Notes under the pieces: generated by a model
Told to the model about the DNA's origin: nothing
Databases searched by the model: none
What the model saw: only the letters and a program-made list of their open reading frames with translations
Part shown: positions 847 through 60,087 of the stretch, one piece after another
Layout of the letters: the number at the start of each line of letters is the position of its first letter
Numbering within the stretch: the first letter of the stretch is position 1
Translations under genes and position numbers: made by a program
Assembly: GCA_964016885.1 (NCBI GenBank)
Contig: OZ024742.1
Location: 376,774,001 to 376,838,000 of the forward strand
From: Eledone cirrhosa
Lineage: Eukaryota
DNA length: 64,000 nucleotides
Direction: 5' to 3'

Positions 847-860
847 ATCTTTTTATTATT

Positions 861-6075: not shown

Positions 6076-6350
6076 GAGGAATTATAGAAGCATATCCGCC
6101 CACAAATTTTGTCACAGCAGTGCATGTTGATATTCTAATTACACCAACTGATGAAACACAAATACTATGTACTGGAGATCAAATTATATCTGAAAATCGA
6201 TTTGACCCTTGGGGTTTATCTGTTCCACAGTGTTCAGTGGATCCACCAAAAATCAATAGTGCCTGTTTTAGAATTGGTAAATCATGTAAATCACAAGGAA
6301 TCATGGGATACGTTTCAATAGTTTTTGTTACGTTTCTCAGTGAACAAACG
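6076..6350 (+). CDS. IQCH: IQCH-like exon C (275 bp, phase 1/0)
   Basis: ttttcAG / GTAAGA. GGIIEAYPPTNFVTAVHVDILITPTDETQILCTGDQIISENRFDPWGLSVPQCSVDPPKINSACFRIGKSCKSQGIMGYVSIVFVTF matches the recalled IQCH motifs GGVIEAFPP, STGDQ, VPQTSVDP, IGKAC, GYFSIDLVTF. Confidence 0.92.
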
Positions 6351-6360
6351 GTAAGATATA

Positions 6361-15799: not shown

Positions 15800-16198
15800 C
15801 ATGATGATGATGATGATCATCATCGTTTAACGTCCATCTTCCACGCTAACATGGGTTTGGACGGGAATGTTCCCACTTGAGGCAAGATTTGTTATCCTGC
15901 TCGTATAGGACTGTCTGGCGGGTTTTCTACGGCTGGATGCTCTTCCTAACACCACCACATTTACAGTGTGGAGTGGGAGGTTTCTACCGTGTTACCTACA
16001 CGGCCACATTACAGCGTGGACTGTGTGGTTTTTTGTCGTGACACCTACACGACCTCATTTGTTTCGGACTGGATGTTGTGGTACCAACATAACTTTACAT
16101 TGGAAGGGGTGGTGTGGATGGGGTGGGGATAGTGGGGCCGGGGTCTATTTTTGTTAGAGATGCCTATTGACTGTAGGTTTCGCTTTGTACTTAGGCGA

Positions 16199-16200
<2 letters not shown>
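15800..16200 (-). mobile_element. RTE family B 3' UTR-only copy
   Basis: Colinear with 41862-42260. Confidence 0.85.
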
Positions 16201-16293
<93 letters not shown>

Positions 16294-16336
16294 TACATAT
16301 ATATATATATATAGTTTCGCCTAAGTACAAAGCGAA

Positions 16337-16388
<52 letters not shown>

Positions 16389-16404
16389 CATATACATATA
16401 TATA

Positions 16405-19400
16405 TCATCATCATCATCATCATCATTTTACGTCCGTTTTTCCCTGCTTGCAAGGGTGGGCCGGGTCCTATTCAGCACAGTATCTCTCCACTTATCACGG
16501 TCCTTCGTCATCTCCACTGTAAGCTTCAGCAATCTGAGGTCTGCTCTCCCCAACTCCGCTTATGTTTTTCGTCGTCTATTTCTACCTCGTCTTCCTTCAA
16601 CTGGCATTTCCTGGCACTTCTTCACCCATCGGTCATCCTCCATGCGCATCACATGTCCATACCATCGCAGTCTCCTCTCTCGCACACTACAATCTATCCC
16701 TCTCAGATACAGTTTCTCTCTCAACACATCCATGCTCGGTCATTCACGCACATTGACATTGCACATCCAACGGCGCATGTTTGTCTCATTTCTCTCCAAC
16801 CGTCGCATATCCTCTGCAGTTGCTGTCCATGTCTCACTACCATGCAGCATCGCGCTCCTCACACAGGCATCATATAACCAGCCTTTCGTACGCAGGGAGA
16901 AACCCTTCTTCATCAGCAGAAGAAGCAGCTCCATAAACTTCTTCCAACCCGTCCTTATTCTAGATACTATGGCCTCGGAACACTCCTCTTCCATGCTAAT
17001 CTGATCACCTAGGTACTGGAAGCTATCAACCACTTCTATAGCGCCCTCCTGCATTTGAAAAATGTGTCTATCAATGCGACTTCTACTGTCTAATTTCCCT
17101 GTACATCTACTGCATACGTATTTCTCCTTACCTGTTAGTTTGCCTGCTATCCCACTATATCTCTTGTGTACCCAAGATCTGCATTGTGTGCATTTTATAG
17201 AATTTAAGCCAGTTCCTTTTCTGCATATCGAACATGGCCATTTCCCTGACGGAATCAGAGTTTTGTCCTCTTTACTACTCATCAACACTTTTGTCTTAGC
17301 TAGATTCACTCTCAGTCCTCTTGCTTCCAACTGCTGTTTCCATAGCCAGAATTTATTCTCTAGCTCCTCTACTGATTCTGCTATAAGAACCAGATCGTCA
17401 GCATAGAGAAGTCCCATGGACAGCCAGTCTTAAACTCCTCTGTTATGGCTTGGAGGACTATAATGAACAAGAGCGGGCTGAGGACTGAACCCTGATGTCC
17501 TCTTACTTGTATCTGGAATTCCTCACTAAACTCCATTCCTACCCTCACTTTACTAACAGCACCTCTGTACAAAGTTTGCACTGTCCTCACAAGCCATTCC
17601 TCAACACCTAGTTTCCTTAGGGACCACCCGATGACAGATTGGGGTACCCTATCAAAGGTCTTCTCTAGGTCAACAAAGGCTAAGTATAGTGGCTTATTTT
17701 TCTCTAAGAACCTCTCTTACAATTGTCTCACCAAGAAGAGGGCATCTGTTGTACTCTTCCCAGGCACAAAACCAAACTGCATCTCATCTAGTTTGACCCT
17801 TTCTCTAATTAGTTGTGCTAATATCCTTACTGCCACTTTCATAACCTGATCCATCAGTTTTATACCCCTATAATTGCTCCTCTCCAGAGCATCCCCTTTA
17901 CCTTTGTAGCAATTTATGAGAATACTGCTGCACCAGTCTTCGGGTATGATGCTGCAATATATAGCCTGATTGATGATGCGTGCAACCAGTTTAGTGCCTA
18001 CGTACCCTGATGCCTTCAGCATCTCAGCAACTATCCCCGACGGTCCAGCGGCCTTACCATTTTTCATTTCCTTAATCGCCTCTTGGACCCTATATTTGTC
18101 AATCTCAATAGCTGGTCCCTCTGTTGGATCTACTGAGGGTAATTTCTCTCTCTCCCATTCGTTCTCCACATTCATCAGTCCCTCATAATGATATTTCCAG
18201 GCCTCCTTTTCCTGATCATTCCTGACATTAAGTACACTGGCATCATTCCGGACACAAACATCCTGATTTGCATTGACACACTGCTTTGCAATGTGGAACA
18301 TCACATGTCTCTGATCTTCCCATCGCAGAACATTGGCAAACCTCCTACTCTTAGCCTCCCTGCATGCTAAGTACACCTGACATCTAGCTTCTCTCTTAGC
18401 GGCTGTATATCCTTCTCTACTCCTACCCTTTTTCCAAGCCTTCCATGCTAGTCTTTTGTCTCTAATGGCCCTATCTACTGTGCTATTTCACCACCAGGTG
18501 ACTCTCTGTCTGCCTGGAGCTCTGCTCCAGCCACAAGTTTCAACAGTAGCCTGCAGTAAGTTGTCATCTATGTCATACGTCTCTAAATCGTCTTCATACA
18601 CGCCTTGAAGGGCTTTCCTAAATTTGTATTTTAGTGAAAGGTCTTTTAGCTTCCAGATCTTTCTTCTCCACACCTTCCTGTATGTCTCATTCCATCTCTT
18701 GCTTACTGAGATATCACTAACGACTAACCTATGCTGTGGGGTACATTCTTCCCCAGGGTATGCCTTGGTATTTGACACCATCTGCCTGTCCCACTGCCTA
18801 ACTAGTAAGAAGTCAATCTGGCTTATGTGCTCGCCTGATTTGTAGGTTATTACGTGGTTGGCAGGTTTCTGGAGGTTAGTGTTGTAAATGGTTAGTGTAC
18901 TTGCATCAAAACATTTAAGAAGTCTCACTCCTTCTTCATTTCTTGAGCTGTAACCGTGCCCACCATATACTCCAGTGTAACCATCCTGGAGCTGTCCAAC
19001 ATGTCCATTAAAGTCCCCTGCTAGCATAACGATGTCTCTGTCCTCTGTCATTGAGGCTGTTTGTAAAAGTTGCTCGTAAGAGCGGTCTTTCTCTTCTTTA
19101 CCTAGGCCTGCCTGGGGAGCATAGGCAGAGATGATTGTCAGTAGTCTCCTGCCTACAACTAATCTAAGCTTAATTATTCTATTACTAACTCTAACTACCT
19201 CTATTGTCTTATTGATCCATCTCTCAGCCAGTAAAATGCCCACCTCCCCTAACCCATCATCAGTACCCACCCAGAAAAGCTTATAACTATGATATTTGCC
19301 TGCGATTAGTCTCGCAGAGGTCGCTCTCCATCTCACCTCTTTCTCTCCAGCATCTCCGCTATTTCACCAGATCTACCTGTGAGAGTGCCAACATTAAGTA

Positions 19401-19998: not shown

Positions 19999-20155
19999 AT
20001 ACACACATATACACATACACACATACATACAGACATACATACACACACATACACACACATATGCTTCCAGGTACATTTACATGTATTTTTCCATACTTGT
20101 ATCTAATTTGATTTATTTTCTCTCTTCTCTCTCTCTGTATATATGTATAAATATA

Positions 20156-23100
20156 TACACTATAAAGTGGTTATGTAGGTGTCACAACAAAAGTGCCCAG
20201 TCCACACTATAAAGTGGTTATGTAGGTGTCACAACAAAAGTGCCCAATCCACACTATAAAGTGGTTATGTAGGTCCCACGACAAAAGTGCCCAGTCCAAA
20301 CTGTAAAGTGGTCATGTAGGTGTCACAACAAAAGTGCCCAGTACATACTGTAAAGTGGTCATGTAGGTGTCACAACAAAAGTGCCCAGTCCACACTGTAA
20401 AGTGGTCATGTAGGTGTCACAACAAAAGTGCCCAGTCCACACTGTAAAGTGGTCATGTAGGTGTCATGACAAAAGTGCCCAGTCTACACTGTAAAGTAGT
20501 CATGTAGGTGTCACAACAAAAGTGCCCAGTCCACACTGTAAAGTGGTCATGTACGTGTCACAACAAAAGTACCCAGTCCACACTGTAAAGTGGTCATGTA
20601 GGTGTCATGACAAAAGTGCCCAGTCCACACTGTAGAGTGGTCATGTAGGTGTCATGACAAAAGTGCCCAGTCCACACTGTAAAGTGGTCATGTAGGTGTC
20701 ACTACAAAAGTGCCCAGTCCACACTGTAAAGTGGTCATGTAGGTGTCATGACAAAAGTGCCCAGTCCACACTGTAAAGTGGTCATGTAGGTGTCATGACA
20801 AAAGTGCCCAGTCCACACTGTAAAGTGGTCATGTAGGTGTCACAACAAAAGTGCCCAGTACACACTGTAAAGTGGTCATGTAGGTGTCACGACAAAAGTG
20901 CCCAGTACACACTGTAAAGTGGTTATGTAGGTGTCACGACAAAAGTGCCCAGTCCACACTGTAAAGTGGTCATGTAGGTGTCACAACAAAAGTGCCCAGT
21001 CCACACTGTAAAGTGGTCATGTAGGTGTCATGACAAAAGTGCCCAGTCCACACTGTAAAGTGGTCATGTAGGTGTCACAACAAAAGTGCACAGTACATAC
21101 TGTAAAGTGGTCATGTAGGTGTCCCGACAAAAGTGCCCAGTCCACACTGTAAAGTGGTCATGTAGGTGTCACAACAAAAGTGCCCAGCCCACACTATGAA
21201 GTGGTTATGTACGTGTCACGACAAAAGTGCCCAGTCCATACTGTAAAATGGTCATGTAGGTGTCTCACAAAAATGCCCAGTCCATACTGTACAGTGGTCA
21301 TGTAGGTGTCACAACAAAAGTGCCCAGTACACACTGTAAAGTGGTCATGTAGGTGTCACGACAAAAGTGCCCAGTGCACACTGTAAAGTGGTCATGTAGG
21401 TGTCACAACAAAAGTGCACAGTACATACTGTAAAGTGGTCATGTAGGTGTGCCGACAAAAGTGCCCAGTCCACAGTGTAAAGTGGTCATGTAGGCGTCAC
21501 AACAAAAAGCACCCAGTACACACTGTAAAGTGGTTATGAAGGTGTCACAACAAAAGTGCCCAGTCCACACTGTAAAGTGGTCATGTAGGTGTCACGACAA
21601 AAGTGCCCAGTCCACACTGTGAAGTGGTCATGTAGGTGTCACGACAAAAGTGGCCAGTCCACACTGTAAAGTGGTCATGTAGGTGTCATGACAAAAGTGC
21701 CCAGTCCATACTGTAAAGTGGTCATGTAGGTGTCACAACAAAAGTGCCCAGTACACACTGTAAAGTGGTCATGTAGGTGTCACGACAAAAGTGCCCAGTC
21801 CATACTGTAAAGTGCTCATGTAGGTGTCACAACAAAAAGCACCCAGTACACACTGTAAAGAGGTCATGTAGGTGTCACAACAAAAGTGCCCAGCCCACAC
21901 TATGAAGTGGTTATGTACGTGTCACGACAAAAGTGCCCAGTCCATACTGTAAAATGGTCATGTAGGTGTCTCACAAAAGTGCCCAGTCCATACTGTACAG
22001 TGGTCATGTAGGTGTCACAACAAAAGTGCCCAGTACACACTGTAAAGTGGTCATGTAGGTGTCATGACAAAAGTGCCCAGTGCACACTGTAAAGTGGTTG
22101 TGTTGGTGTCATGACAAAAGTGCCCAGTCCACACTGTAAAGTGGTCATGTAGGTGTCACAACAAAAAGCACCCAGTACACACTGTAAAGTGGTCATATAG
22201 GTGTCACGACAAAAGTGCCCAGTCCACACTGTAAAGTGGTTATGTACGTGTCACGACAAAAGTGCCCAGTACACACTGTAAAGTGGTCATGTAGGTGTCA
22301 CAACAAAAAGCACCCAGTACACACTGTAAAGTGGTTATGAAGGTGTCACAACAAAAGTGCCCAGTCCACACTGTAAAGTGGTCATGTAGGTGTCACGACA
22401 AAAGTGCCCAGTCCACACTGTGAAGTGGTCATGTAGGTGTCACGACAAAAGTGGCCAGTCCACACTGTAAAGTGGTCATGTAGGTGTCACACAAAAGCAC
22501 CCAGTACACACTGTAAAGTGGTTATGTAGGTGTCACAACAAAAGTGCCCAGTCCACACTGTAAAGTGGTCATGTAGGTGTAACACAAAAGTGCCCAGTAC
22601 ACACTGTAAAGTGGTCATGTAGGTGTAACAACAAAAGTGCCCAGTCCACACTGTAAAGTGGTCATGTAGGTGTCATGACAAAAGTGCCCAGTCCACGCTG
22701 TAAAGTGGTCATGTAGGTGTCATGACAAAAGTGCCCAGTCCACACTGTAAAGTGGTCATGTAGGTGTCATGACAAAAGTGCCCAGTCCACGCTGTAAAGT
22801 GGTCATGTAGGTGTCACGACAAAAGTGCCCAGTCCACACTGTAAAGTGGTCATATAGGTGTCATGACAAAAGTGCCCAGTCCATACTGTAAAGTGGTCAT
22901 ATAGGTGTCACAACAAAAGTACCCAGTCCACACTGTAAAGTGGTCATGTAGGTGTCACAACAAAAGTGCCCAGTCCACACTGTAAAGTGGTCATGTAGGT
23001 GTCATGACAAAAGTGCCCAGTCCATACTGTAAAGTGGTCATGTAGGTGTCACAACAAAAGTGCCCAGTACACACTGTAAAGTGGGCATGTATGTGTCACA

Positions 23101-26100
23101 ACAAAAGTGCCCAGTACACACTGTAAAGTGGTCATGTAGGTGTCACGACAAAAGTGCCCAGTACACACTGTAAAGTGGTTATCTAGGTGTCACAACAAAA
23201 AGCACCCAGTACACACTGTGAAGTGGTCATGTAGGTGTCACAACAAAAGTGCCCAGTACACACTGTAAAGTGGTCATGTAGGTGTCACGACAAAAGTGCC
23301 CAGTCCACACTGTAATGTGGTTATGTAGGTGTCACGACAAAAGTGCCCAGTCCACACTGTAAGGTGGTCATGTAGGTGTCACAACAAAAGTGCCCAGTAC
23401 ACACTGTAAAGTGGTCATGTAGGTGTCACGACAAAAGTGCCCAGTACACACTGTAAAGTGGTCATGTAGGTGTCACAACAAAAAGCACCCAGTACACACT
23501 GTAAAGTGGTTATGTAGGTGTCACAACAAAAGTGCCCAGTCCACACTCTAAAGTGGTCCTGTAGGTGTCACAACAAAAGTGCCCAGTCCACACTGTAAAG
23601 TGGTCATGTAGGTGTCACACAAAAGCACCCAGTACACGCTGTAAAGTGGTTATGTAGGTGTCACAACAAAAGTGCCCAGTCCACACTGTAAAGTGGTCAT
23701 GTAGGTGTAACACAAAAGTGCCCAGTACACACTGTAAAGAGGTTATGTAGGTGTCACAACAAAAGTGCCCAGTCCACACTGTAAAGTGGTCATGTAGGTG
23801 TCATGACAAAAGTGCCCAGTCCACACTGTAAAGTGGTCATGTAGGTGTCACGACAAAAGTGCCCAGTCCACACTGTAAAGTGGTCATGTAGGTGTCACAA
23901 CAAAAGTGCCCAGTCCACACTGTAAAGTGGTCATGTAGGCGTCATGACAAAAGTGCCCAGTCCACACTGTAAAGTGGTCATGTAGGTGTCACGACAAAAG
24001 TGCCCAGTCTACACTGTAAAGTGGTCACGTAGGTGTCACGACAAAAGTGCCCAGTCCACACTGTAAAGTGGTCATGTAGGTGTCATGACAAAAGTGCCCA
24101 GTCCATACTGTAAAGTGGTCATATAGGTGTCACAACAAAAGTACCCAGTCCACACTGTAAAGTGGTCATGTAGGTGTCATGACAAAAGTGCCCAGTCCAT
24201 ACTGTAAAGTGGTCATGTAGGTGTCATGACAAAAGTGCCCAGTCCATACTGTAAAGTGGTCATGTAGGTGTCACAACAAAAGTGCCCAGTACACACTGTA
24301 AAGTGGTCATGTAGGTGTCACGACAAAAGTGCCCAGTCCACACTGTAAAGTGGTCATGTAGGTGTCACAACAAAAAGCACCCAGTACACGCTGTAAAGAG
24401 TTCATGTAGGTGTCACAACAAAAGTGCCCAGCCCACACTATAAAGTGGTTATGTAGGTGTCACGACAAAAGTGCCCAGTCCATACTGTAAAATGGTCATG
24501 TAGGTGTCTCACAAAAGTGCCCAGTACACACTGTAAAGTGGTCATGTAGGTGTCACAACAAAAGTGCCCAGTACACACTGTAAAGTGGTCATGTAGGTGT
24601 CACGACAAAAGAGCCCAGTACACACTGTAAAGTGGTCATGTAGGTGTCACAACAAAAAGCACCCAGTACACACTGTAAAGTGATTATGTAGGTGTCACAA
24701 CAAAAAGCACCCAGTACACACTGTAAAGTGGTCATGTAGGTGTCACAACAAAAAGCACCCAGTACACACTGTAAAGAGGTCATGTAGGTGTCACAACAAT
24801 AGTGCCCAGCCCACACTATAAAGTGGTTATGTAGGTGTCATGACAAAAGTGCCCAGTCCATACTGTAAAGTGGTCATGTAGGTGTCTCACAAAAGTGCCC
24901 AGTCCACACTGTAAAGTGGTCATGTAGGTGTCACAACAAAAAGCACCCAGTACACACTGTAAAGAGGTCATGTAGGTGTCACAACAATAGTGCCCAGCCC
25001 ACACTATAAAGTGGTTATGTAGGTGTCATGACAAAAGTGCCCAGTCCATACTGTAAAGTGGTCATGTAGGTGTCTCACAAAAGTGCCCAGTACACACTGT
25101 AAAGTGGTCATGTAGGTGTCACAACAAAAGTGCCCAGTCCACACTGTAAAGTGGTCATGTAGGTGTCACGACAAAAGTGCCCAGTCCACACTGTAAAGTG
25201 GTCATGTAGGTGTCATGACAAAAGTGCCCAGTCTACACTGTAAAGTGGTCACGTAGGTGTCACGACAAAAGTGCCCAGTCCACACTGTAAAGTGGTCATG
25301 TAGGTGTCATGACAAAAGTGCCCAGTACACACTGTAAAGTGGTTATGTAGGTATCACAACAAAAGTGCCCAGTCCACACTGTAAAGTGGTCATGTAGGTG
25401 TCATGACAAAAGTGCCCAGTCTACACTGTAAAGTGGTCACGTAGGTGTCACGACAAAAGCACCCAGTACACACTGTAAAGTGGTTATGTAGGTGTCACAA
25501 CAAAAGTGCCCAGTCCACACTGTAAAGTGGTCATGTAGGTGTCACAACAAAAGTGCCCAGTACCCACTGTAAAGTGGTCATGTAGATGTCACAACAAAAG
25601 TGCCCAGTACACACTGTAAAGTGGTCATGTAGGTGTCACGACAAAAGAGCCGAGTACACACTGTAAAGTGATTATGTAGGTGTCACAACAAAAAGCACCC
25701 AGTACACACTGTAAAGTGGTCATGTAGGTGTCATGACAAAAGTGCCCAGTCTACACTGTAAAGTGGTCACGTAGGTGTCACGACAAAAGCACCCAGTACA
25801 CACTGTAAAGTGGTTATGTAGGTGTCACAACAAAAGTGCCCAGTCCACACTGTAAAGTGGTCATGTAGGTGTCACAACAAAAGTGCCCAGTACACACTGT
25901 AAAGTGGTTATGTAGGTGTCACAACAAAAGTGCCCAGTACACACTGTAAAGTGGTCATGTAGGTGTCACAACAAAAGTGCCCAGTACACACTGTAAAGTG
26001 GTTATGTAGGTGTCACACAAAAGCACCCAGTACACACTGTAAAGTGGTCATGTAGGTGTCACAACAAAAGTGCCCAGTCCACACTGTAAAGTGATCATGT

Positions 26101-29100
26101 AGGTGTCACACAAAAGCACCCAGTACACACTGTAAAGTGGTCCTGTAGGTGTCACAACAAAAGTGCCCAGTCCACACTGTAAAGTGGTCATGTAGGTGTC
26201 ACACAAAAGTGCCCTGTACACACTGTAAAGTGGTTATGTAGGTGTCATAACAAAAGTGCCCAGTCCACACTGTAAAGTGGTCATGTAGGTGTCACACAAA
26301 AGTGCCCAGTCCACACTGTAAAATGGTCATGTAGGTGTCACACAAAAGCACCCAGTACACACTGTAAAGTGGTTATGTAGGTGTCACAACAAAAAGCACC
26401 CAGTACACACTGTAAAGTGGTCATGTAGGTGTCACAACAAAAGTGCCCAGTCCACACTGTAAAATGGTCATGTAGGTGTCACACAAAAGCACCCAGTACA
26501 CACTGTAAAGTGGTTATGTAGGTGTCACAACAAAAAGCACCCAGTACACACTGTAAAGTGGTCATGTAGGTGTCACAACAAAAAGCACCCAGTACACACT
26601 GTAAAGAGGTCATGTAGATGTCACAACAATAGTGCCCAGCCCACACTATAAAGTGGTTATGTAGGTGTCATGACAAAAGTGCCCAGTCCATACTGTAAAG
26701 TGGTCATGTAGGTGTCTCACAAAAGTGCCCAGTCCACACTGTAAAGTGGTCATGTAGGTGTCACAACAAAAAGCACCCAGTACACACTGTAAAGTGGTCA
26801 TGTAGGTGTCACAACAAAAGTGCCCAGTACCCACTGTAAAGTGGTCATGTAGGTGTCACGACAAAAGTGCCCAGTCCACAGTGTAAAGTGGTTATGTAGG
26901 TGTCACAACAAAAAGCACCCAGTACACTCTGTAAAGAGGTCATGTAGGTGTCACAACAAAAGTGCCCAGCCCACACTATGAAGTGGTTATGTACGTGTCA
27001 CGACAAAAGTGCCCAGTCCATACTGTAAAATGGTCATGTAGGTGTCACAACAAAAGTGCCCAGTCCACACTGTAAAGTGGTCATGTAGGTTTCACGACAA
27101 AAGTGCCCAGTACACACTGTAAAGTGGTCATGTAGGTGTCACAACAAAAGTGCCCAGTCCACACTGTAAAGTGATCATGTAGGTGTCACACAAAAGCACC
27201 CAGTACACACTGTAAAGTGGTTATGTAGGTGTCACAACAAAAGTGCCCAGTCCACACTGTAAAGTGGTCATGTAGGTGTCACACAAAAGCACCCAGTACA
27301 CACTGTAAAGTGGTCATGTAGGTGTCACAACAAAAGTGCCCAGTCCACACTGTAAAGTGGTCATGTAGGTGTCACACAAAAGCACCCAGTACACAGTGTA
27401 AAGTGGTTATGTAGGTGTCACAACAAAAGTGCCCAGTCCACACTGTAAAGTGGTCATGTAGGTGTCACACAAAAGCACCCAGTACACACTGTAAAGTGGT
27501 CCTGTAGGTGTCACAACAAAAGTGCCCAGTCCACACTGTAAAGTGGTCATGTAGGTGTCACACAAAAGTGCCCAGTACACACTGTAAAGTGGTTATGTAG
27601 GTGTCATAACAAAAGTGCCCAGTCCACACTCTAAAGTGGTCATGTAGGTGTCACACAAAAGCACCCAGTACACACTGTAAAGTGGTCCTGTAGGTGTCAC
27701 AACAAAAGTGCCCAGTCCACACTGTAAAATGGTCATGTAGGTGTCACACAAAAGCACCCAGTACACACTGTAAAGTGGTTATGTAGGTGTCACAACAAAA
27801 GCACCCAGTACACACTGTAAAGTGGTCATGTACGTGTCACAACAAAAGTGCCCAGTCCACACTGTAAAGTGGTTATGTAGGTGTCACAACAAAAGTGCCC
27901 AGTCCACACTGTAAAGTGGTCATGTAGGTGTCACTACAAAAGTGCCCAGTCCACACTATAAAGTGGTTATGTAGGTGTCATGACAAAAGTGCCCAGTCCA
28001 CACTGTAAAGTGGTCATGTAGGTGTCATGACAAAAGTGCCCAGTCCATACTGTAAAGTGGTCATATAGGTGTCACAATATAAGTACCCAGTCAACACTGT
28101 AAAATGGTCATGTAGGTGTCACAACAAAAGTGCCCAGTCCACACTGTAAAGTGGTCATGTAGGTGTCAGAACAAAAGTGCCCAGTCCACACTGTAAAGTG
28201 GTCATGTAGGTGTCATGACAAATATGCCCAGTCCATACTGTAAAGTGGTCATGTAGGTGTCAGAACAAAAGTGCCCAGTCCACACTGTAAAGTGGTCATG
28301 TAGGTGTCACGACAAAAGTGCCCAGTCCACACTGTAAAGTGGTCATGTAGGTGTCATGACAAAAGTGCCCAGTCCATACTGTAAAGTGGTCATGTAGGTG
28401 TCACAACAAAAGTGCCCAGTACACACTGTAAAGTGGTCATGTAGGTGTCACAACAAAAAGCACCCAGTACACACTGTAAAGAGGTCACGTAGGTGTCACA
28501 ACAATAGTGCCCAGTCCACACTGTAAAGTGGTCATGTAGGTGTCATGACAAAAGTACCCAGTCCACACTGTAAACTGGTCATGTAGGTGTCATGACAAAA
28601 GTGCCCAGTCCACACTGTAAAGTGGTCATGTAGGTGTCACAACAAAAGTGCCCAGTCCACACTCTAAAGTGGTCATGTAGGTGTCACACAAAAGCACCCA
28701 GTACACACTGTAAAGTGGTCCTGTAGGTGTCACAACAAAAGTGCCCAGTCCACACTGTAAAGTGGTCATGTAGGTGTCACACAAAAGCACCCAGTACACA
28801 CTGTAAAGTGGTTATGTAGGTGTCACACAAAAGCACCCAGTACACACTGTAAAGTGGTTATGTAGGTGTCACAACAAAAGTGCCCAGTCCACACTGTAAA
28901 GTGGTCATGTAGGTGTCACAACAGAAGTGCCCAGTCCTCACTGTAAAGTGGTCATGTAGGTGTCACAACAAAAGTGCCCAGTCCACACTGTAAAGTGGTC
29001 ATGTAGGTGTCACAACAAAAGTGCTCAGTACACACTGTAAAGTGGTCACGTAGGTGTCACGACACAAGTGCCCAGTCCACACTGTAAAGTGGTCATGTAG

Positions 29101-32100
29101 GTGTCATGACAAAAGTGCCCAGTCCATACTGTAAAGTGGTCATGTAGGTGTCACAACAAAAGTACCCAGACCACGCTGTAAAGTGGTCATGTAGGTGTCA
29201 CAACAAAAGTACCCAGTACACACTGTAAAGTGGTCATGTAGGTGTCACGACAAAAGTGCCCAGTACACACTGTAAAGTGGTTATGTAGGTGTCACAACAA
29301 AAGTGCCCAGTCTACACTGTAAAGTGGTCATGTAGGTGTCACAACAAAAGTGCCCAGTACACACTGTAAAGTGGTCATGTAGGTGTTACGACAAAAGTGC
29401 CCAGTCCACACTGTAAAGTGGTTATGTAGGTGTCATGACAAAAGTGCCCAGTCTACACTGTAAAGTGGTCATGTAGGTGTCACGACAAAAGTGCCAAGTA
29501 CACACTGTAAAGTGGTCATGTAGGTGTCACAACAAAAAGCACCCAGTACACACTGTAAAGTGGTTATGTAGGTGTCACAACAAAAGTGCCCAGTCCACAC
29601 TGTAAAGTGGTCATGTAGGTGTCACAACAAAAGTGCCCAGTACACACTGTAAAGTGCTCATGTAGGTGTCACACAGAAGTGCCCAGTCCATACTGTAAAG
29701 TGGTCATGTAGGTGTCACAACAAAAGTGCCCAGTCCACACTGTAAAGTGGTCATGTAGGTGTCACGACAAAAGTGCCCAGTACACACTGTAAAGTGGTCA
29801 TGTAGGTGTCACAACAAAAGTGCCCAGTCCACACTGTAAAGTGGTCATGTAGGTGTCACACAAAACTGCCCAGTACACACTGTAAAGTGGTTATGTAGGT
29901 GTCACAACAAAAGTGCCCAGTCCACACTGTAAAGTGGTCATGTAGGTGTCACACAAAAGCACCCAGTACACACTGTAAAGTGGTCATGTAGGTGTCACAC
30001 AAAAGTGCCCAGTCCACACTGTAAAGTGGTCATGTAGGTGTCACACAAAAGCACCCAGTACACACTGTAAAGTGGTTATGTAGGTGTCACAACAAAAGTG
30101 CCCAGTCCACACTGTAAAGTGGTCATGTAGGTGTCACACAAAAGCACCCAGTACACACTGTAAAGTGGTCCTGTAGGTGTCACAACAAAAGTGCCCAGTC
30201 CACACTCTAAAGTGGTCATGTAGGTGTCACACAAAAGCACCTAGTACACACTGTAAAGTGGTCCTGTAGGTGTCACAACAAAAGTGCCCAGTCCACACTG
30301 TAAAGTGGTCATGTAGGTGTCACACAAAAGTGCCCAGTACACACTGTAAAGTGGTTATGTAGGTGACACAACAAAAGTGCCCAGTCCACACTCTAAAGTG
30401 GTCATGTAGGTGTCATGACAAAAGTGCCCAGTCCACACTGTAAAGTGGTCATGTAGGTGTCACGACAAAAGTGCCCAGTCCACACTGTAAAGTGGTCATG
30501 TAGGTGTCATGACAAAAGTGCCCAGTCCATACTGTAAAGTGGTCATATAGGTGTCACAACAAAAGTACCCAGTCCACACTGTAAAATGGTCATGTAGGTG
30601 TCACAACAAAAGTGCCCAGTCCACACTGTAAAGTGGTCATGTAGGTGTCATGACAAAAGTGCCCAGTCCATACTGTAAAGTGGTCATGTAGGTGTCACAA
30701 CAAAAGTGCCCAGTCCACACTGTAAAGTGGTCATGTAGGTGTCACAACAAAAGTGCCCAGTCCACACTGTAAAGTGGTCATGTAGGTGTCATGACAAAAG
30801 TGCCCAGTACACACTGTAAAGTGGTCATGTAGGTGTCATGACAAAAGTGCCCAGTACACACTGTAAAGTGGTCATGTAGGTGTCACGACAAAAGTGCCCA
30901 GTCCACACTGTAAAGTGGTCATGTAGGTGTCACAACAAAAAGCACCCAGTACACACTGTAAAGAGGTCACGTAGGTGTCACAACAATAGTGCCCAGTCCA
31001 CACTGTAAAGTGGTCATGTAGGTGTCACACAAAAGCACCCAGTACACACTGTAAAGTGGTTGTGTAGGTATCACAACAAAAGTGACCAGTCCACACTGTA
31101 AAGTGGTCATGTAGGTGTCACAACAAAAGTGCCCAGTACACACTGTAAAGTGGTCATGTAGGTGTCACGACAAAAGTGCCCAGTCCACACTGTAAAGTGG
31201 TCATGTAGGTGTCACAACAAAAGTGCCCAGTCCACACTGTAAAGTGGTCATGCACGTGTCACAACAAAAGTGCCCAGTCCACACTGTAAAGTGGTCATGT
31301 AGGTGTCATGACAAAAGTACCCAGTCCACACAGTAAACTGGTCATGTAGGTGTCACGACAAAAGTGCCCAGTCCACACTCTAAAGTGGTCATGTAGGTGT
31401 CACACAAAAGCACCCAGTACACACTGTAAAGTGGTCCTGTAGGTGTCACAACAAAAGTGCCCAGTCCACACTGTAAAGTGGTCATGTAGGTGTCATGACA
31501 AAAGTGCCCAGTCCACACTGTAAACTGGTCATGTAGGTGTCACAACAAAAGTGCCCAGTCCACACTCTAAAGTGGTCATGTAGGTGTCACACAAAAGCAC
31601 CCAGTACACACTGTAAAGTGGTCCTGTAGGTGTCACAACAAAAGTACCCAGTCCACACTGTAAAGTGGTCATGTAGGTGTCACACAAAAGCACCCAGTAC
31701 ACACTGTAAAGTGGTTATGTAGGTGTCACACAAAAGCACCCAGTACACACTGTAAAGTGGTTATGTAGGTGTCACAATAAAAGTGCCCAGTCCACACTGT
31801 AAAGTGGTCATGTAGGTGTCACAACAAAAGTGCCCAGTACACACTGTAAAGTAGTCATGTAGGTGTCACGACAAAAGTGCCCAGTCCACACTGTAAAGTG
31901 GTCATGTAGGTGTCACAACAAAAGTGCCCAGTCCACACTGTAAAGTGGTCATGTAGGTGTCACAACAAAAGTGCCCAGTACACACTGTAAAGTGGTCATG
32001 TAGGTGTCACAACAAAAGTGCCCAGTACACACTGTAAAGTGGTCATGTAGGTGTCACGACAAAAGTGCCCAGTACACACTGTAAAGTGGTCATGTAGGTG

Positions 32101-35100
32101 TCACAACAAAAGTGCCCAGTACACACTGTAAAGTGGTCATGTAGGTGTCACAACAAAAGTGCCCAGTACACACTGTAAAGTGGTCATGTAGGTGTCACAC
32201 AAAAGTGCCCAGTCCACACTGTAAAGTGGTCATGTAGGTGTCACAACAAAAGTGCCCAGTCCACACTGTAAAGTGGTCATGCACGTGTCACAACAAAAGT
32301 GCCCAGTCCACACTGTAAAGTGGTCATGTACGTGTCATGACAAAAGTACCCAGTCCACACTGTAAACTGGTCATGTAGGTGTCATGACAAAAGTGCCCAG
32401 TCCACACTGTAAAGTGGTCATGTAGGTGTCACAACAAAAGTGCCCAGTCCACACTCTAAAGTGGTCATGTAGGTGTCACACAAAAGCACCCAGTACACAC
32501 TGTAAAGTGGTCCTGTAGGTGTCACAACAAAAGTGCCCAGTCCACACTGTAAAGTGGTCATGTAGGTGTCACACAAAAGCACCCAGTACACACTGTAAAG
32601 TGGTTATGTAGGTGTCACACAAAAGCACCCAGTACACACTGTAAAGTGGTTATGTAGGTGTCACAACAAAAGTGCCCAGTCCACACTGTAAAGTGGTCAT
32701 GTAGGTGTCACAACAAAAGTGCCCAGTACACACTGTAAAGTGCTCATGTAGGTGTCACGACAAAAGTGCCCAGTCCACACTGTAAAGTGGTCATGTAGGT
32801 GTCACAACAAAAGTGCCCAGTCCACACTGTAAAGTGGTCATGTAGGTGTCACAACAAAAGTGCCCAGTACACACTGTAAAGTGGTCACGTAGGTGTCACG
32901 ACACAAGTGCCCAGTCCACACTGTAAAGTGGTCATGTAGGTGTCATGACAAAAGTGCCCAGTCCATACTGTAAAGTGGTCATGTAGGTGTTACAACAAAA
33001 GTACCCAGTCCACGCTGTAAAGTGGTCATGTAGGTGTCACAACAAAAGTGCCCAGTACACACTGTAAAGTGGTCATGTAGGTGTCACAACAAAAAGCACC
33101 CAGTACACACTGTAAAGAGGTCATGTAGGTGTCACAACAAAAGTGCCCAGCCCACACTATAAAGTGGTTATGTAGGTGTCACGACAAAAGTGCCCAGTCA
33201 ACACTGTAAAGTGGTTATGTAGGTGTCACGACAAAAGTGCCCAGTCCACACTGTAAAGTGGTCATGTAGGTGTCACAACAAAAGTGCCTAGTCCACACTG
33301 TAAAGTGGTCATGTAGGTGTCACGACAAAAGTGCCCAGTACACACTGTAAAGTGGTTATGTAGGTGTCACAACAAAAGAGCCCAGTCCACACTGTAAAGT
33401 GGTCATGTATGTGTCACACAAAAGTGCCCAGTCCATACTGTAAAGTGGTCATGTAGGTGTCACAACAAAAGTGCCCAGTCCACACTGTAAAGTTGTCATG
33501 TAGGTGTCACAACAAAAAGCACCCAGTACACACTGTAAAGTGGTTATGTAGGTGTCACAACAAAAGAGCCCAGTCCACACTGTAAAGTGGTCATGTATGT
33601 GTCACACAAAAGTGCCCAGTCCATACTGTAAAGTGGTCATGTAGGTGTCACAACAAAGGTGCCCAGTCCACACTGTAAAGTGGTCATGTAGGTGTCACGA
33701 CAAAAGTGCCCAGTACACACTGTAAAGTGGTCATGTAGGTGTCACAACAAAAGTGCCCAGTCCACACTGTAAAGTGGTCATGTAGGTGTCACACAAAAGT
33801 GCCCAGTACACACTGTAAAGTGGTTATGTAGGTGTCACAACAAAAGTGCCCAGTCCACACTCTAAAGTGGTCATGTAGGTGTCACACAAAAGCACCCAGT
33901 ACACTCTGTAAAGTGGTCATGTAGGTGTCACGACAAAAGTGCCCAGTCCACACTGTAAAGTGGTCATGTAGGTGTCACAACAAAAAGCACCCAGTACACA
34001 CTGTAAAGTGGTTATGTAGGTGTCACAACAAAAGTGCCCAGTCCACACTGTAAAGTGGTCATGTCGGTGTCACGACAAAAGTGCCCAGTACACACTGTAA
34101 AGTGGTCGTGTCACGACAAAAGTGCCCAGTACACACTGTAAAGTGGTCATGTAGGTGTCACAACAAAAGTGCCCAGTCCACACTGTAAAGTGGTCATGTA
34201 GGTGTCACACAAAAGTGCCCAGTACACACTGTAAAGTTGTTATGTAGGTGTCACAACAAAAGTGCCCAGTCCACACTCTAAAGTGGTCATGTAGGTGTCA
34301 CACAAAAGCACCCAGTACACTCTGTAAAGTGGTCATGTAGGTGTCACGACAAAAGTGCCCAGTCCACACTGTAAAGTGGTCATGTAGGTGTCACAACAAA
34401 AAGCACCCAGTACACACTGTAAAGTGGTTATGTAGGTGTCACAACAAAAGTGCCCAGTCCACACTGTAAAGTGGTCATGTAGCTGTCACGACTAAAGTGC
34501 CCGGTACACACTGTAAAGTGGTCATGTAGGTGTCACAACAAAAGTGCCCAGTCCACACTGTAAAGTGGTCATGTAGGTGTCACAACAAAAGTGCCCAGTC
34601 CACACTGTAAAGTGGTCATGTAGGTGTCACAACAAACAACACCCAGTCCACACTGTAAAGTTGTCATGTAGGTGTCACAACAAAAGTGCCCAGTCCACAC
34701 TGTAAAGTGGTCGTGTCACGACAAAAGTGCCCAGTACACACTGTAAAGTGGTCATGTAGGTGTCACAACAAAAAGCACCCAGTACACACTGTAAAGTGGT
34801 TATGTAGGTGTCACAACAAAAGTGCCCAGTCCACACTCTAAAGTGGTCATGTAGGTGTCACACAAAAGCACCCAGTACACTCTGTAAAGTGGTCATGTAG
34901 GTGTCACGACAAAAGTGCCCAGTACATACTGTAAAGTGGTCATGTAGGTGTCTCACAAAAGTGCCCAGTACACACTGTCAAGTGGTCATGTAGGTGTCAC
35001 AACAAAAGTGCCCAGTCCACACTGTAAAGTGGTCATGTAGGTGTCACAACAAAAGTGCCCAGTCCACACTGTAAAGTGGTCATGTAGGTGTCACAACAAA

Positions 35101-38100
35101 AGTGCCCAGTACACACTGTAAAGTGGTCATGTAGGTGTCACGACAAAAGCACCCAGTCCACACTGTAAAGTGATCATGTAGGTGTCACAACAAAAGTGCC
35201 CAGTCCACACTGTAAAGTGGTCATGTAGGTGTCACAAAAAAAGTGCCCAGTACATACTGTAAAGTGGTCATGTAGGTGTCACGACAAAAGTGCCCAGTCC
35301 ACACTGTAAAGTGGTCATGTAGGTGTCAACAAAAAGCACCCAGTACACACTGTAAAGTGGTTATGTAGGTGTCACAACAAAAGTGACCAGTCCACACTGT
35401 AAAGTGGTCATGTAGGTGTCACAACAAAGGGGCCCAGTACACACTGTAAAGTGGTCATGTAGGTGTCACAACAAAAGTGCCCAGTCCACACTGTAAAGTG
35501 GTCATGTAGGTGGCACACAAAAGTGCCCAGTACACACTGTTAAGTGGTTATGTAGGTGTCACAACAAAAGTGCCCAGTCCACACTCTAAAGTGGTCATGT
35601 AGGTGTCACACAAAAGCACCCAGTACACACTGTAAAGTGGTCATGTAGGTGTCACAACAAAAGTGCCCAGTCCACACTGTAAAGTGGTCATGTAGGTGTC
35701 ACACAAAAGCACCCAGTACACACTGTAAAGTGGTGATGTAGGTGTCACAACAAAAGTGCCCAGTCCACACTGTAAAGTGGTCATGTAGGTGTCACAACAA
35801 AAGTGCCCAATACACACTGTAAAGTGGTCATGTAGGTGTCACGACAAAAGTGCCCAGTCCACACTGTAAAGTGGTCATGTAGGTGTCACGACAAAAGTGC
35901 CCAGTACATACTGTAAAGTGGTCTTGTAGGTGTCACAACAAAAGTGCCCAGTCCACACTGTAAAGTGGTCATGAAGGTGTCATGACAAAATTGCCCAGTC
36001 CACACTGTAAAGTGGTCATGTAGGTGTCACAACAAAAGTGCCCAGTACATACTGTAAAGTGGTCATGTAGGTGTCACGACAAAAGTGCCCAGTCCACACT
36101 GTAAAGTGGTCATGTAGGTGTCACAATAAAAAGCACCCAGTACACACTGTAAAGTGGTTATATAGGTGTCACAACAAAAGTGCCCAGTCCACATTGTAAA
36201 GTGGTCATGTAGGTGTCACGACAAAAGTGCCCAGTACACACTGTAAAGTGGTCATGTAGGTGTCACGACAAAAGTGCCCAGTACACACTGTAAAGTGTTC
36301 ATGTAGGTGTCACGACAAAAGTGCCCAGTACACACTGTAAAGTGGTCATGTAGGTGTCACAACAAAAGTGCCCAGTCCACACTGTAAAGTGGTCATGTAG
36401 GTGTCAAAACAAAAGTGCCCAGTACACACTGTAAAGTGGTCATGTAGGTGTCACGACAAAAGTGCCCAGTACACACTGGAAAGTGGTCATGTAGGTGTCA
36501 CGACAAAAGTGCCCAGTACATACTGTAAAGTGGTCATGTAGGTGTCACGACAAAAGTGCCCAGTCCACACTGTAAAGTGTTCATGTAGGTGTCACGACAA
36601 AAGTGCCCAGTACACACTGTAAAGTGGTCATGTAGGTGTCACAACAAAAGTGCCCAGTCCACACTGTAAAGTGGTCATGTAGGTGTCAAAACAAAAGTGC
36701 CCAGTACACACTGTAAAGTGGTCATGTAGGTGTCACGACAAAAGTGCCCAGTACACACTGGAAAGTGGTCATGTAGGTGTCACGACAAAAGTGCCCAGTA
36801 CATACTGTAAAGTGGTCATGTAGGTGTCACGACAAAAGTGCCCAGTCCACACTGTAAAGTGGTCATGTAGGTGTCATGACAAAATTGCCCAGTCCACACT
36901 GTAAAGTGGTCATGTAGGTGTCACGACAAAAGTGCCCAGTACATACTGTAAAGTGGTCATGTAGGTGTCACAACAAAAGTGCCCAGTCCACACTGTAAAG
37001 TGGTCATGTAGGTGTCACAACAAAAAGCAACCAGTACACACTGTAAAGTGGTTATGTAGGTGTCACAACAAAAGTGCCCAGTCCACACTGTAAAGTGGTC
37101 GTGTCACGACAAAAGTGCCCAGTCCACACTGTAAAGTGGTCATGTAGGTGTCACGACAAAAGTGCCCAGCCCACACTATAAAGTGGTCATGTAGGTGTCA
37201 CGACAAAAGTGCCCAGCCACACTGTAAAGTGGTCATGTAGGTGTCACGACAAAAGTGCCCAGTCCACACTGTAAAGTGGTCACGTAGGTGTCACGACAAA
37301 AGCACCCAGTCCACACTGTAAAGTGGTCATGTAGGTGTCACAACAAAAGTGCCCAGTCCACACTGTAAAGTGGTCATGTAGGTGTCACAACAAAAGTGCC
37401 CAGTACATACTGTAAAGTGGTCATGTAGGTGTCACGACAAAAGTTCCCAGTCTACACTGTAAAGTGGTCATGTAGGTGTCACAACAAAAGTGCCCAGTCC
37501 ACACTGTAAAGTGGTCATGTACGTGTCACAACAAAAGTACCCAGTCCACACTGTAAAGTGGTCATGTAGGTTTCATGACAAAAGTGCCCAGTCCACACTG
37601 TAAAGTGGTCATGTAGGTGTCACAACAAAAGTCCCCAGTCCACACTGTAAAGTGGTCATGTAGGTGTCACTACAAAAGTTGCCGGGTCCACACTGTAAAG
37701 TGGTCATGTAGGTGTCACAACAAAAGTGCCCAGTACACACTGTAAAGTGGTCATGTAGGTGTTACGACAAAAGTGCCCAGTCCATTCTGTAAAGTGGTCA
37801 TGTAGGTGTCACAACAAAAGTGCCCAGTCCACACTGTAAAGTGGTCATGTAGGTGTCAACAAAAAGCACCCAGTACACACTGTAAAGAGGTCATGTAGGT
37901 GTCACAATAAAAGTGCCCAGCCCACACTATAAAGTGGTTATGTAGGTGTCACGACAAAAGTGCCCAGTCCACACTGTAAAGTGGTCATGTAGGTGTCTCA
38001 CAAAAGTGCCCAGTACACACTGTAAAGTGGTCATGTAGGTGTCACAACAAAAGTGCCCAGTACACACTGTAAAGTGGTTATGTAGGTGTCACGGCAAAAG

Positions 38101-38545
38101 TGCCCAGTCCACACTGTAAAGTGGTCGTGTAGGTGTCATGACAAAAGTGCCCAGTCCGCACTGTAAAGTGGTCATGTAGGTGTCACAACAAAAAGCACCC
38201 AGTACACACTGTAAAGTGGTCATGTAGATGTCATGACAAAAGTGCCCAGTCCACACTGTAAAGTGGTCATGTAGGTGTCACGACAAAAGTGCCCAGTCCA
38301 CACTGTAAAGTGGTCATGTAGGTGTCACAACAAAAAGCACCGAGTACACACTGTAAAGTGGTCATGTAGGTGTCACACAAAAGTGCCCAGTACACACTGT
38401 AAAGTGGTTATGTAGGTGTCACAACAAAAGTGCCCAGTCCACACTCTAAAGTGGTCATGTAGGTGTCACAACAAAAGTGCCCAGTACACTCTGTAAAGTG
38501 GTCATGTAGGTGTTACGATAAAAAGCACCCAGCAGACTCTGTAAA
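20156..38545 (+). repeat. ~18.4-kb satellite, 47-bp unit (46-48 bp variants), about 390 copies
   Basis: Consensus GTAAAGTGGTCATGTAGGTGTCACAACAAAAGTGCCCAGTCCACACT, uninterrupted. Confidence 0.98.
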
Positions 38546-38710
38546 TGTGGTTGGTGTTAGGAAGGGCATCAAGCTGTAGGAACCCAGTGAAAATCAGTTG
38601 TGTTTGAGCGAAACACAGTCCTATGACCTGACCTCTCACAAAGGGTCAGCGTGTCCTACCCATGCTAGCGTGGAAAATGGACGTTGAACGATGATAATTA
38701 TGATGAAGAT
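38546..38710 (+). mobile_element. RTE family B terminal 3' UTR and tail, contiguous with the satellite
   Basis: GTGGTTGGTGTTAGGAAGGGCATC...CCCATGCTAGCGTGGAAAATGGACGTTGAACGATGAT; colinear with 685-846. Confidence 0.88.
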
Positions 38711-38742
38711 ATATATTGTAGATATTATATATGTATATTACA

Positions 38743-38927
38743 GCGGTGAATTGGCAGTATCAGTAGAGCGTTAGACACCATGCTTTACAGCATAGAGTTA
38801 TGGCCCTGAACGTTCTGAGTTCAAATGCCGCCGAGGTTAACTTTACCTTTCATCCTTACGCGGTCGATAAATAAAGTACCAGTAATACACTGGGATAATT
38901 GCTGGATTTGTGCCAAAAGTAGAAACA
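38743..38927 (+). mobile_element. SINE family 1, full length, 19-bp TSD
   Basis: TSD ATTATATATGTATATTACA at 38724-38742 and 38928-38946. Confidence 0.9.
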
Positions 38928-38966
38928 ATTATATATGTATATTACACACAAAACACATATCTCCAC

Positions 38967-39601
38967 TATCATTTTACGTCCCCTTTTCCCTGCTTGCAAG
39001 GGTGGGTCGAGTCCTATTCAGCACAGCATCTCTCCACTTGTCACGGTCCTTCATCATCTCCTCCGTGAGCTTCAGCAATCTGAGGTCTGCTCTCACCACC
39101 TCCGGCCATGTTTTTCCTGGTCTTCTTCTACTGCGTCTTCCTTCTACTGGGATTTCTTGGCACTTCTTTACCCAGGGGTCATCCTCCATGCGCATCACAT
39201 GTCCATACCATCGCAGCCTTCTCTCCTGCACACCACAATCTATCCCTGTTATACACAGTTTCTCTCTCAACTCGTCTATGCTTGGTCGTTCACGCACATT
39301 GACATTGCACATCCAACGGAGCATACTAGCCTCATTTCTCTCCAGCCGTCGCATATCCTCTGCAGTTGCTACCCATGTCTCACTACCATGCAACATCGCA
39401 TTCCTCACACAGGCATCATATAACCGGCCTTTTGTTCGCAGGGAGAAACCCTTCTTTGTCAACAGAGGAAGCAGCTCCCTAAACTTCTTCCAACCCGTCC
39501 TTATTCTAGATACTATGGCCTTGGAACACCCCCCTCCCTACTTCCCATCCTAATCTGATCTCCTAGGTACCAGAAGCTATCAACCACTTCTATAGAACCT
39601 A
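38967..39601 (-). mobile_element. RTE family A, 5'-truncated copy
   Basis: ORF 38974-39462 ([20 protein letters not shown]...RRLRWYGHV); colinear with 16420-17040. Confidence 0.92.
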
Positions 39602-39690
39602 GATGAAGATATATATTATAGATATTATATATGTATATATTACACACATATATATAAATATATATTTTCTGTGTGAAATCTATTTTCCAG

Positions 39691-39885
39691 AAGGAGCAAC
39701 AGTTGTGGACAGTTGACATGAAACTTGGTTACAGTGATTCCCTAGCCATGTTTCAGTTGATGAAATTCCTCAGTAACATTTACTTTGACGTTGATACACA
39801 TCATCTCATCATGGCTGACAACGAGACACAAACTCATAAAGATAAAACTTCTCAAGAGAAATATTCTGCAAGCAAGAAATCCCAG
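39691..39885 (+). CDS. IQCH: IQCH-like exon D (about 195 bp; 3' boundary less certain)
   Basis: ttttccAG acceptor. [29 protein letters not shown] continues IQCH (EQQVWA..L.L.YSD.LA). Weak donor CAG|GTTGTA gives phase 0, compatible with exon E. Confidence 0.82.
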
Positions 39886-41794: not shown

Positions 41795-41861
41795 ATATGT
41801 ATGCGTATATGTATATATATATATTTATATATATATATATATATGTAAATATATATATATA

Positions 41862-59974: not shown

Positions 59975-60087
59975 GTAAGTATATTTTATTATCTATTAAA
60001 GTTATGTCTTAATAAATTCAGAGTGTGGAACCGAGACTGCACCACTGTCTATAAATATATATATAGTTTTATATTGTGTGTGTACAT

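What the first reader, a model, noticed from the sequence alone, without database searches (positions are those of the whole stretch)
20156..38710. 18-kb intronic satellite grown out of an RTE LINE 3' UTR and still attached to its tail
Seen: the 47-bp unit matches an imperfect two-copy repeat in the RTE-B 3' UTR (585-683 on +; 42021-42112 and 60249-60341 on -, e.g. GTGTAGGTGTCACGACAAAA...CAGTCCAC..TGTAA.GTGG). The last unit reads directly into the rest of the UTR and the (GAT)n-like tail at 38546-38710, and the array starts abruptly in (TA)n with no upstream LINE. Inference: a 5'-truncated RTE (or RTE-tailed SINE) insertion seeded a ~390-copy satellite in place. The array keeps the RT-recognition tail in sense with IQCH, so array pieces could be retro-mobilised.
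Basis: partly seen in the sequence, partly recalled or inferred. Interest (0 to 1): 0.75.

Follow-up and report, generated by a model that had tools for sequence, protein, structure and literature searches.

The report
LINE tail grown into intronic satellite
An 18-kb run of 392 copies of a 47-base repeat fills part of an intron of the IQCH gene and runs straight into the tail of an old retrotransposon; it likely grew in place from that element's own short repeat, as happened at many other copies in this genome, and one variant of the repeat likely also spread back into unrelated copies of the element.

Summary
Observation confirmed: 392 units (mostly 47 bp) at 20157-38546, in an IQCH intron, sense strand, running into an RTE-type LINE 3' tail with no parent LINE upstream. 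It is not unique. The scan already reported this RTE-UTR satellite at seven other loci of this genome, and 5 of 29 RTE 3' ends in the 272 kb around the window are arrays of 10 or more units, each with its own unit variant (one is 53 kb, also in IQCH). Best reading: in-place expansion of the 2-6 native UTR units of an old, probably 5'-truncated copy (0.75). Retro-mobilisation is not supported: the nearest other tail is 87% identical, the array's dimer is private, and no complex target-site duplications were found (0 of 46). New here: one CpG-free 48-mer forms a ~700-kb tail-less array on contig C25 and sits, exactly, inside UTRs of LINE subfamilies whose relatives never carry it (0 of 87 tail-selected copies). 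That suggests secondary satellite-to-LINE back-transfer. The focal array holds no exact copy of it. Known kind (Ogre-UTR satellites; Rsp-like invasion), not found described for octopod RTEs.

The parts
20157..38546 (+). Tandem array, 392 units of 41-48 bp (modal 47 bp), derived from the RTE 3' UTR repeat; 172 distinct variants; irregular duplicated blocks of 6-8 units
38547..38715 (+). Remainder of the RTE-type 3' UTR: two conserved blocks and a decayed (GAT)n tail; nearest other copy found is 87% identical
20138..20156 (+). TA-rich 5' flank; shares only a low-complexity 12-mer with the sequence after the tail (possible, unprovable TSD)
6078..6351 (+). IQCH exon upstream of the host intron (PF24923 positions 140-227)
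39692..39885 (+). IQCH exon downstream of the host intron (PF24923 positions 232-265)
38742..38929 (+). Short interspersed repeat inserted just after the tail, flanked by a ~17-bp duplication (SINE identity recalled, not tested)
   Evidence: high copy number
38970..39602 (-). Separate RTE ORF-end fragment, opposite strand, flanked by a ~48-bp duplication once the SINE is removed
1..850 (+). RTE copy with ORF end, two UTR units (583-683) and tail: unexpanded state, different subfamily
41855..43118 (-). RTE copy with ORF end (PHD-finger hit below Pfam cut-off), two UTR units and tail: unexpanded state, different subfamily
60086..61500 (-). RTE copy of the same subfamily as the 42-kb copy, two UTR units and tail
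15810..19363 (-). Long broken RTE copy (endonuclease, RT and PHD pieces) with its own 2-unit UTR; head to head with the array, not its parent

Best explanation
The 18.4-kb array is a tandem repeat joined to the 3' tail of an old RTE-type LINE copy in an IQCH intron, and it likely grew in place from the few 47-48-bp units that this LINE subfamily carries in its 3' UTR. Shown: unit homology, position, private variants, irregular multi-unit duplications, and neighbours with their own variants. Inferred: a 5'-truncated copy inserted into TA-rich DNA with a few units; after partial decay, unequal exchange or intra-array gene conversion shuffled and multiplied them, in a region near the contig end that favours such expansion. 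It is a passive by-product with no sign of having been retrotransposed as an array. Separately, and mostly at other loci, one derived 48-mer (S48 = L040:4584-4631) likely spreads between loci by homology-led ectopic repair into pre-existing LINE UTRs.
For: (1) Of 29 copies chosen by the window's tail (84-87% identical), 28 have 0-6 units and one has 24; the G(C/T)GCCC motif that marks 73% of the focal units is native to them (12 of 55 inner units) but 1 of 22 in subfamily D and 0 of 64 in B'. (2) The exact dimer of the modal unit occurs 10 times in the genome, all in this array; 165 of 172 variants were not seen in any other array then fetched. (3) 10 duplicated blocks of 6 or more units versus 0 in 19 of 20 shuffles and 1 in one; longest exact repeat 384 bp. 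(4) Unbiased census: 5 of 29 RTE 3' ends in 272 kb around the window are arrays of 10 or more units, with medoid units 15, 9, 3, 10 and 5 edits from S48 and tails 61-85% alike. (5) Among 29 relatives of one younger tail, two had expanded, each from a different one of their own native units (L278 x15, L279 at least 31). (6) Arrays with ORF, UTR and tail all intact exist from 5 to ~95 units. (7) Polarity: LINE units mostly carry CpG at two sites; S48 has none.
Against: The focal modal unit is only 2 edits from S48 and shares its two CpA states, while native relatives are at least 5 edits from the modal unit, so input from the S48 lineage is not excluded. One focal unit carries a minor motif found in 6 of 34 S48-selected loci and 0 of 87 tail-selected loci. 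Tail distance does not predict unit distance across 34 arrays (Mantel rho 0.03, p 0.36), although that set was selected by unit similarity. No clean TSD marks the insertion, so 5' truncation is inferred. Similarity does not fall with distance along the array, which fits long-range shuffling but gives no growth polarity. Array length was not validated with long reads.
Confidence: 0.75

Rival explanations
1. The focal array was seeded or overwritten by foreign satellite units (S48 lineage), copied into an old LINE UTR by ectopic gene conversion or circular-DNA reintegration, and then diverged locally.
For: This appears to have happened elsewhere. L033 has its two native units, then abruptly ~95 S48-type units (47% exact), while 29 tail relatives at 93-96% have no inner unit closer than 7 edits. 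L316 is a second B'-like case, and L328 ends in a tail 99% identical to a young short element whose native units are 10-12 edits away. The focal modal unit is 2 edits from S48, and one unit carries an S48-associated minor motif.
Against: 0 of 392 focal units are exact S48; the dominant motif is native to the tail's subfamily; the first units end like the native first unit (by eye); four neighbouring arrays are 5-15 edits from S48; the first 100 listed places of the S48 dimer, sorted by contig, include none on C3.
Confidence: 0.17
2. The array was retrotransposed as a long block by an array-carrying RTE or SINE, and such arrays are mobile through the retained tail.
For: Many arrays are 5'-abrupt and end in the tail like truncated retrocopies: 8 of 14 unit-selected and 20 of 33 dimer-selected arrays have the tail.
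Against: No near-identical tail for the focal element (87%), L145 (89%) or L040 (86-88%); 40 array tails average 74% identity and the only pairs at 96% or more are local duplicates; no sister of the L033 junction; complex TSDs 0 of 46 versus 24 of 2070 mismatched controls; the focal (GAT)n is decayed. Each search scored only ~40 best candidates.
Confidence: 0.05
3. The array or its junction with the tail is an assembly artefact (collapse, false expansion or misjoin).
For: No read or contig spanning the array or its 5' junction was obtained; the assembly holds very large arrays of related units.
Against: 172 variants and no exact repeat over 384 bp; the last unit is LINE-like and in register, as at dozens of other loci; a 107-bp contig of a public run matches 38666-38772 exactly (tail-to-SINE junction only); IQCH exons are collinear across it.
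Confidence: 0.03

Closest known systems
Satellites from 3' UTR tandem repeats of Ogre LTR retrotransposons in Lathyrus sativus (PMC7004042, passages read)
   Same: Short tandem array at a fixed place downstream of the coding region, a continuum of array sizes, occasional large expansion, regional preference.
   Different: Host here is a non-LTR RTE-type LINE; expansions seen are intronic and near contig ends or on small contigs, not shown to be in primary constrictions; one homologous unit expands independently from several subfamilies.
LINE 3'-end-derived satellites: cetacean common satellite from L1, chicken HinfI from CR1, Drosophila HeT-A 3' satellite (as listed in review PMC9659126, passages read; primary papers not read)
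   Same: Satellite monomer homologous to a LINE 3' region.
   Different: Here the monomer is already a short internal repeat of the UTR, and junctions to ORF, UTR and tail survive at many loci. The review's main text has no occurrence of 'RTE'.
Rsp-like satellite invading 1.688 clusters in Drosophila simulans clade (PMC7403614, passages read)
   Same: A young homogeneous repeat enters dispersed older repeat loci at junctions with shared sequence; interlocus conversion or eccDNA proposed.
   Different: Here the target is the UTR of the LINE family that gave rise to the satellite. This applies to L033, L316 and L328, not demonstrably to the focal array; eccDNA was not tested.
RTE-2_OV of Octopus vulgaris (PMC9115989, passages read)
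   Same: Octopus RTE-clade LINE with a repeat-rich 3' UTR.
   Different: Described with a microsatellite UTR and a C2H2 finger; no 47-49-bp repeat mentioned in the passages; sequence not compared.

Membership tests
RTE-clade LINE (parent element) | AP-type endonuclease and reverse transcriptase in one coding region | tested here: met
   Window copy 15810-19363: Exo_endo_phos_2 (below cut-off) and RVT_1 (above cut-off) hits, frame-broken. The focal copy itself has no ORF left.
RTE-clade LINE (parent element) | 3' end of short tandem microsatellite rather than poly(A) | tested here: met
   (GAT)n tails in all four aligned copies, decayed in the focal one. That RTEs end this way is established knowledge; PMC9115989 passage agrees.
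RTE-clade LINE (parent element) | RT phylogeny places it in the RTE clade | tested here: inconclusive
   No tree with reference RTs. Best named endonuclease hit is 'craniofacial development protein 2-like [Octopus bimaculoides]'; that this label marks RTE endonucleases is recalled. 'RTE-B' or BovB sub-label not tested.
RTE-clade LINE (parent element) | Target-site duplication around the insertion | tested here: inconclusive
   Only a low-complexity 12-mer at the focal copy; 0 of 46 old array copies show a complex TSD.
Retroelement 3' UTR-derived satellite (Ogre type) | Monomer present as a short array at a fixed position downstream of the coding region in ordinary element copies | tested here: met
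   0-6 units between ORF stop and tail in three tail-selected sets of 29.
Retroelement 3' UTR-derived satellite (Ogre type) | Continuum from short to expanded arrays still embedded in the element | tested here: met
   ORF-and-tail-flanked arrays of about 5, 9, 11, 15, 17, 26, 53 and 95 units.
Retroelement 3' UTR-derived satellite (Ogre type) | Host is a Tat/Ogre LTR retrotransposon | tested here: not met
   Host is a non-LTR element. It works like the Ogre case but is not a member.
Retroelement 3' UTR-derived satellite (Ogre type) | Expanded arrays concentrated in primary constrictions | not testable with these tools
   No centromere data. The window lies 2.1 Mb from the end of a 378.9-Mb contig.
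Retro-mobile tandem repeat (VNTR-bearing retroposon) | Dispersed daughter copies with near-identical tail and array | tested here: not met
Rsp-like-type satellite invasion of older repeat loci | Foreign homogeneous units abut native units at a homologous junction | tested here: met
   Met at L033, L316 and L328; not met at the focal array (0 of 392 exact S48).
Rsp-like-type satellite invasion of older repeat loci | Repeat enriched on extrachromosomal circles, or interlocus contacts | not testable with these tools
   No eccDNA or Hi-C data.

The most novel reading that the evidence does not exclude
The RTE 3' UTR repeat and its satellite form a two-way system: thousands of LINE insertions plant seeds that expand independently, and one winning variant, amplified to ~700 kb on C25, is copied back by ectopic repair into UTRs of unrelated LINE subfamilies, so dead LINE copies serve as landing pads for satellite spread and for LINE-LINE chimeras.
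Probability: 0.55. Interest if true: 0.7.

Novelty: new variant of a known kind. Interest (0 to 1): 0.5.

Why it matters
It gives a dated, many-replicate natural series of satellite birth in an animal genome, with subfamily-diagnostic tails acting as built-in lineage tags. That makes in-place growth versus inter-locus transfer directly separable, an old question in satellite biology. It also shows a route to intron inflation: about 72 kb of the 163 kb of IQCH mapped here is this one repeat family. No function for the array is shown.

Tried and rejected
Retro-mobilisation from this locus: rejected. A young array-carrying LINE subfamily: rejected. The minus-strand LINE at 15.8-19.4 kb as parent: rejected (opposite strand, own UTR). 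A regular higher-order repeat in the focal array: none; lags 1-30 are flat at 3.7-4.1 edits. Read validation: contigs of four runs could not bridge the 5' junction because repeats were skipped; RAD reads and contigs at the 3' end were dominated by other copies; small-share runs from other organisms were not used as evidence. I first read S48 sharing as proof of general homogenisation, then downgraded it: arrays met without selection on the unit are often far from S48 (3-15 edits), so the low between-array distance is partly ascertainment; only the tail-controlled cases are kept as evidence. The unbiased C25 census (200 kb) was uninformative: it held other satellites and no array of this unit. 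Structure, complex, RNA-fold and small-RNA tests were not run. Expression was not examined.
Full report
1. Observation. TRF finds a 47-bp array of 391.6 copies at 20157-38513; alignment-guided splitting gives 392 units. The last unit and the next ~170 bp align with the 3' UTRs of the RTE-type copies at 1-850 (+), ~42 kb (-) and ~60 kb (-). The 5' end abuts TA-rich DNA with no same-strand LINE. IQCH is on + (PF24923 E 3e-31, 1e-7, 6e-20 for three exons; 13 tblastn segments with an O. bimaculoides IQCH protein over 163 kb), and the array is in the intron 6352-39691. The genome is 3.0 Gb and octopod by these hits; the window is 2.1 Mb from the end of contig C3. The parent family has endonuclease and RT domains and CFDP2-like endonuclease neighbours; RTE clade is likely but no RT tree was built.

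2. It is one of many. A unit query gave 2138 first-look candidates, 39 scored. Of the 14 distinct arrays fetched from it, 8 end in the tail (3 of these also have the ORF upstream) and 6 do not. The two largest lack both LINE ends: ~698 kb on C25 (18,426,715-19,124,330; both ends read, interior sampled by 12 probes of 1 kb and three of 10 kb, all filled) and ~77 kb on C1132. An earlier-findings look-up returned eight notes, seven of them describing this same RTE 3' UTR satellite at other loci; I treated them as leads only.

3. Unbiased neighbourhood. In 272 kb around the window, 5 of 29 unit-bearing RTE 3' ends are arrays of 10 or more units: at least 28 kb (43/49 bp), 53 kb (49 bp, between IQCH exons), the focal 18.4 kb, 11 units with ORF upstream, and 87 units. 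Their medoid units are 15, 9, 3, 10 and 5 edits from S48 and their tails 61-85% alike. In 200 kb of C1 and C2 interior there was 1 short copy and no array. Against 3 of 85 expanded copies in tail-selected sets (two D loci dropped for lack of an anchor), the region is enriched (Fisher p 0.025; post hoc, and tail-selected sets favour well-kept tails).

4. The focal array fits its own subfamily. 29 copies chosen by the tail alone (84-87%) have 0-6 units, one has 24. The G(C/T)GCCC motif of 73% of focal units is in 12 of their 55 inner units, against 1 of 22 and 0 of 64 in two other subfamilies. All three states of one CpG site (CG 20%, CA 47%, TG 12%) occur in the array, as expected from several decaying founder units. 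The exact dimer is private, 165 of 172 variants were unshared among arrays then in hand, and 10 duplicated blocks of 6-8 units occur against 0-1 in shuffles. Against this reading: the modal unit is 2 edits from S48, and one unit carries a motif seen in 6 of 34 S48 loci and 0 of 87 tail-selected loci.

5. No retro-mobilisation. The best non-self tails are 87% (focal), 89% (L145) and 86-88% (L040). Forty array tails are scattered over the tail tree, mean 74%, with only two local duplicate pairs at 96% or more. Complex TSDs: 0 of 46, control 24 of 2070. Each search scored ~40 candidates, but recovered the self hit.

6. Direction and back-transfer. The unit sits at the same UTR position in every subfamily examined, in subfamily-specific forms with CpG; 61 units of short copies are at least 7 edits from S48 and S48 has no CpG, so LINE to satellite is the original direction (inference from CpG decay, established knowledge). 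Yet an exact 76-bp S48 dimer occurs at 2574 places. The first 100 listed show one locus each on C1 and C2, none on C3, and ten in the first 1.1 Mb of C25; a further search was dominated by C25 and C27. Of 33 dimer-selected arrays, 20 have a tail. Exact S48 is in 0 of 87 tail-selected loci. The clearest case is L033: native unit 1, native unit 2, then an abrupt switch to ~95 S48-type units at a shared 17-bp stretch, whereas its 29 relatives at 93-96% have 1-2 native units or expansions of these. L316 and L328 are similar; the L328 tail is 99% identical to a young short element in the window. Caveat: S48 is about 3 edits from a native unit of subfamily D (by eye) and my searches select for it, so exact matches in old C- or D-type copies could partly be chance retention (15 of 56 arrays have S48 as medoid with tail decay 11.5%, versus 11.7% in the rest). 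The mechanism (ectopic conversion, break repair or circle reintegration) is inferred.

7. Assembly. The longest exact internal repeat is 384 bp. A 107-bp public contig matches the tail-to-SINE junction exactly. The array length and 5' junction are unverified.

8. Literature. Passages read: PMC7004042, PMC7403614, PMC9659126, PMC9115989, PMC13282606 ('satellite' 0 and 'UTR' 0 times in the main text). Supplements of these papers were not opened; the repeat library of PMC13282606 could hold this unit. Seven searches (listings only) showed no paper on an RTE-UTR satellite in cephalopods; subscription journals and Repbase are not covered. A near-window look-up and a words look-up for back-invasion in the scan's notes returned nothing.

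9. Verdict. Real feature; in-place expansion 0.75; retro-mobilisation unsupported; a known kind of process in a new host class, with a probable back-invasion twist at other loci. Interest 0.5.

Noticed in passing
G000:C25:18,426,715-19,124,330 (L046-L048, L050-L061, L069-L088): ~698-kb single-orientation array of the 48-bp S48 variant without LINE ends; its right end folds back into a short inverted copy of the unit. Candidate master array; centromeric role untested.
   Followed up: partly
108 kb upstream of the window (L211-L220, L122): Two more arrays from the same RTE UTR unit: 53 kb (49 bp) in an IQCH intron and at least 28 kb (43/49 bp), each ending in its own tail.
   Followed up: partly
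IQCH region, 272 kb: All 5 large arrays are in sense to IQCH while other RTE tails are 9 sense and 12 antisense (Fisher p 0.04, post hoc); earlier scan notes report antisense arrays in other genes, so this may be chance.
   Followed up: partly
window 866-1316 and about 78-100 kb downstream of the window end (L208-L210): A 33-bp x14 array in the head of a SINE-like repeat, and a 41-bp array of at least 22 kb whose unit resembles the reverse complement of that head by eye: a second element family seeding satellites.
   Followed up: no
window 2514-3859, 9182-15125, 52584-59618: Further intronic expansions: 61 bp x22 from another LINE's 3' end (single copy near 63200-63370), a 6-kb AT-rich array and a 7-kb 24-bp array. 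About half the window is minisatellite.
   Followed up: no
L034:8253-10000: ~88-bp tandem array built from a piece of the RTE ORF.
   Followed up: no
window 16743-17429, 42258-43118, 60853-61500 (-): The RTE ORF has a PHD-finger-like segment (below Pfam cut-off) downstream of the RT core.
   Followed up: no
L328:1284-3080 (-), G000:C25 about 1.31 Mb: Chimera: 5' UTR of one RTE subfamily (by eye), 35 S48-type units, and the tail of a young short element (99% to the copy at window ~50.4 kb).
   Followed up: partly
G000:C25:100,001-244,000: Unrelated satellites: 53 bp x at least 1690 and 36 bp x about 1470.
   Followed up: no
window 38706-38755 and 39603-39650: ~48-bp duplication around a minus-strand RTE fragment, interrupted by a later SINE-like insertion; long for a target-site duplication.
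   Followed up: no
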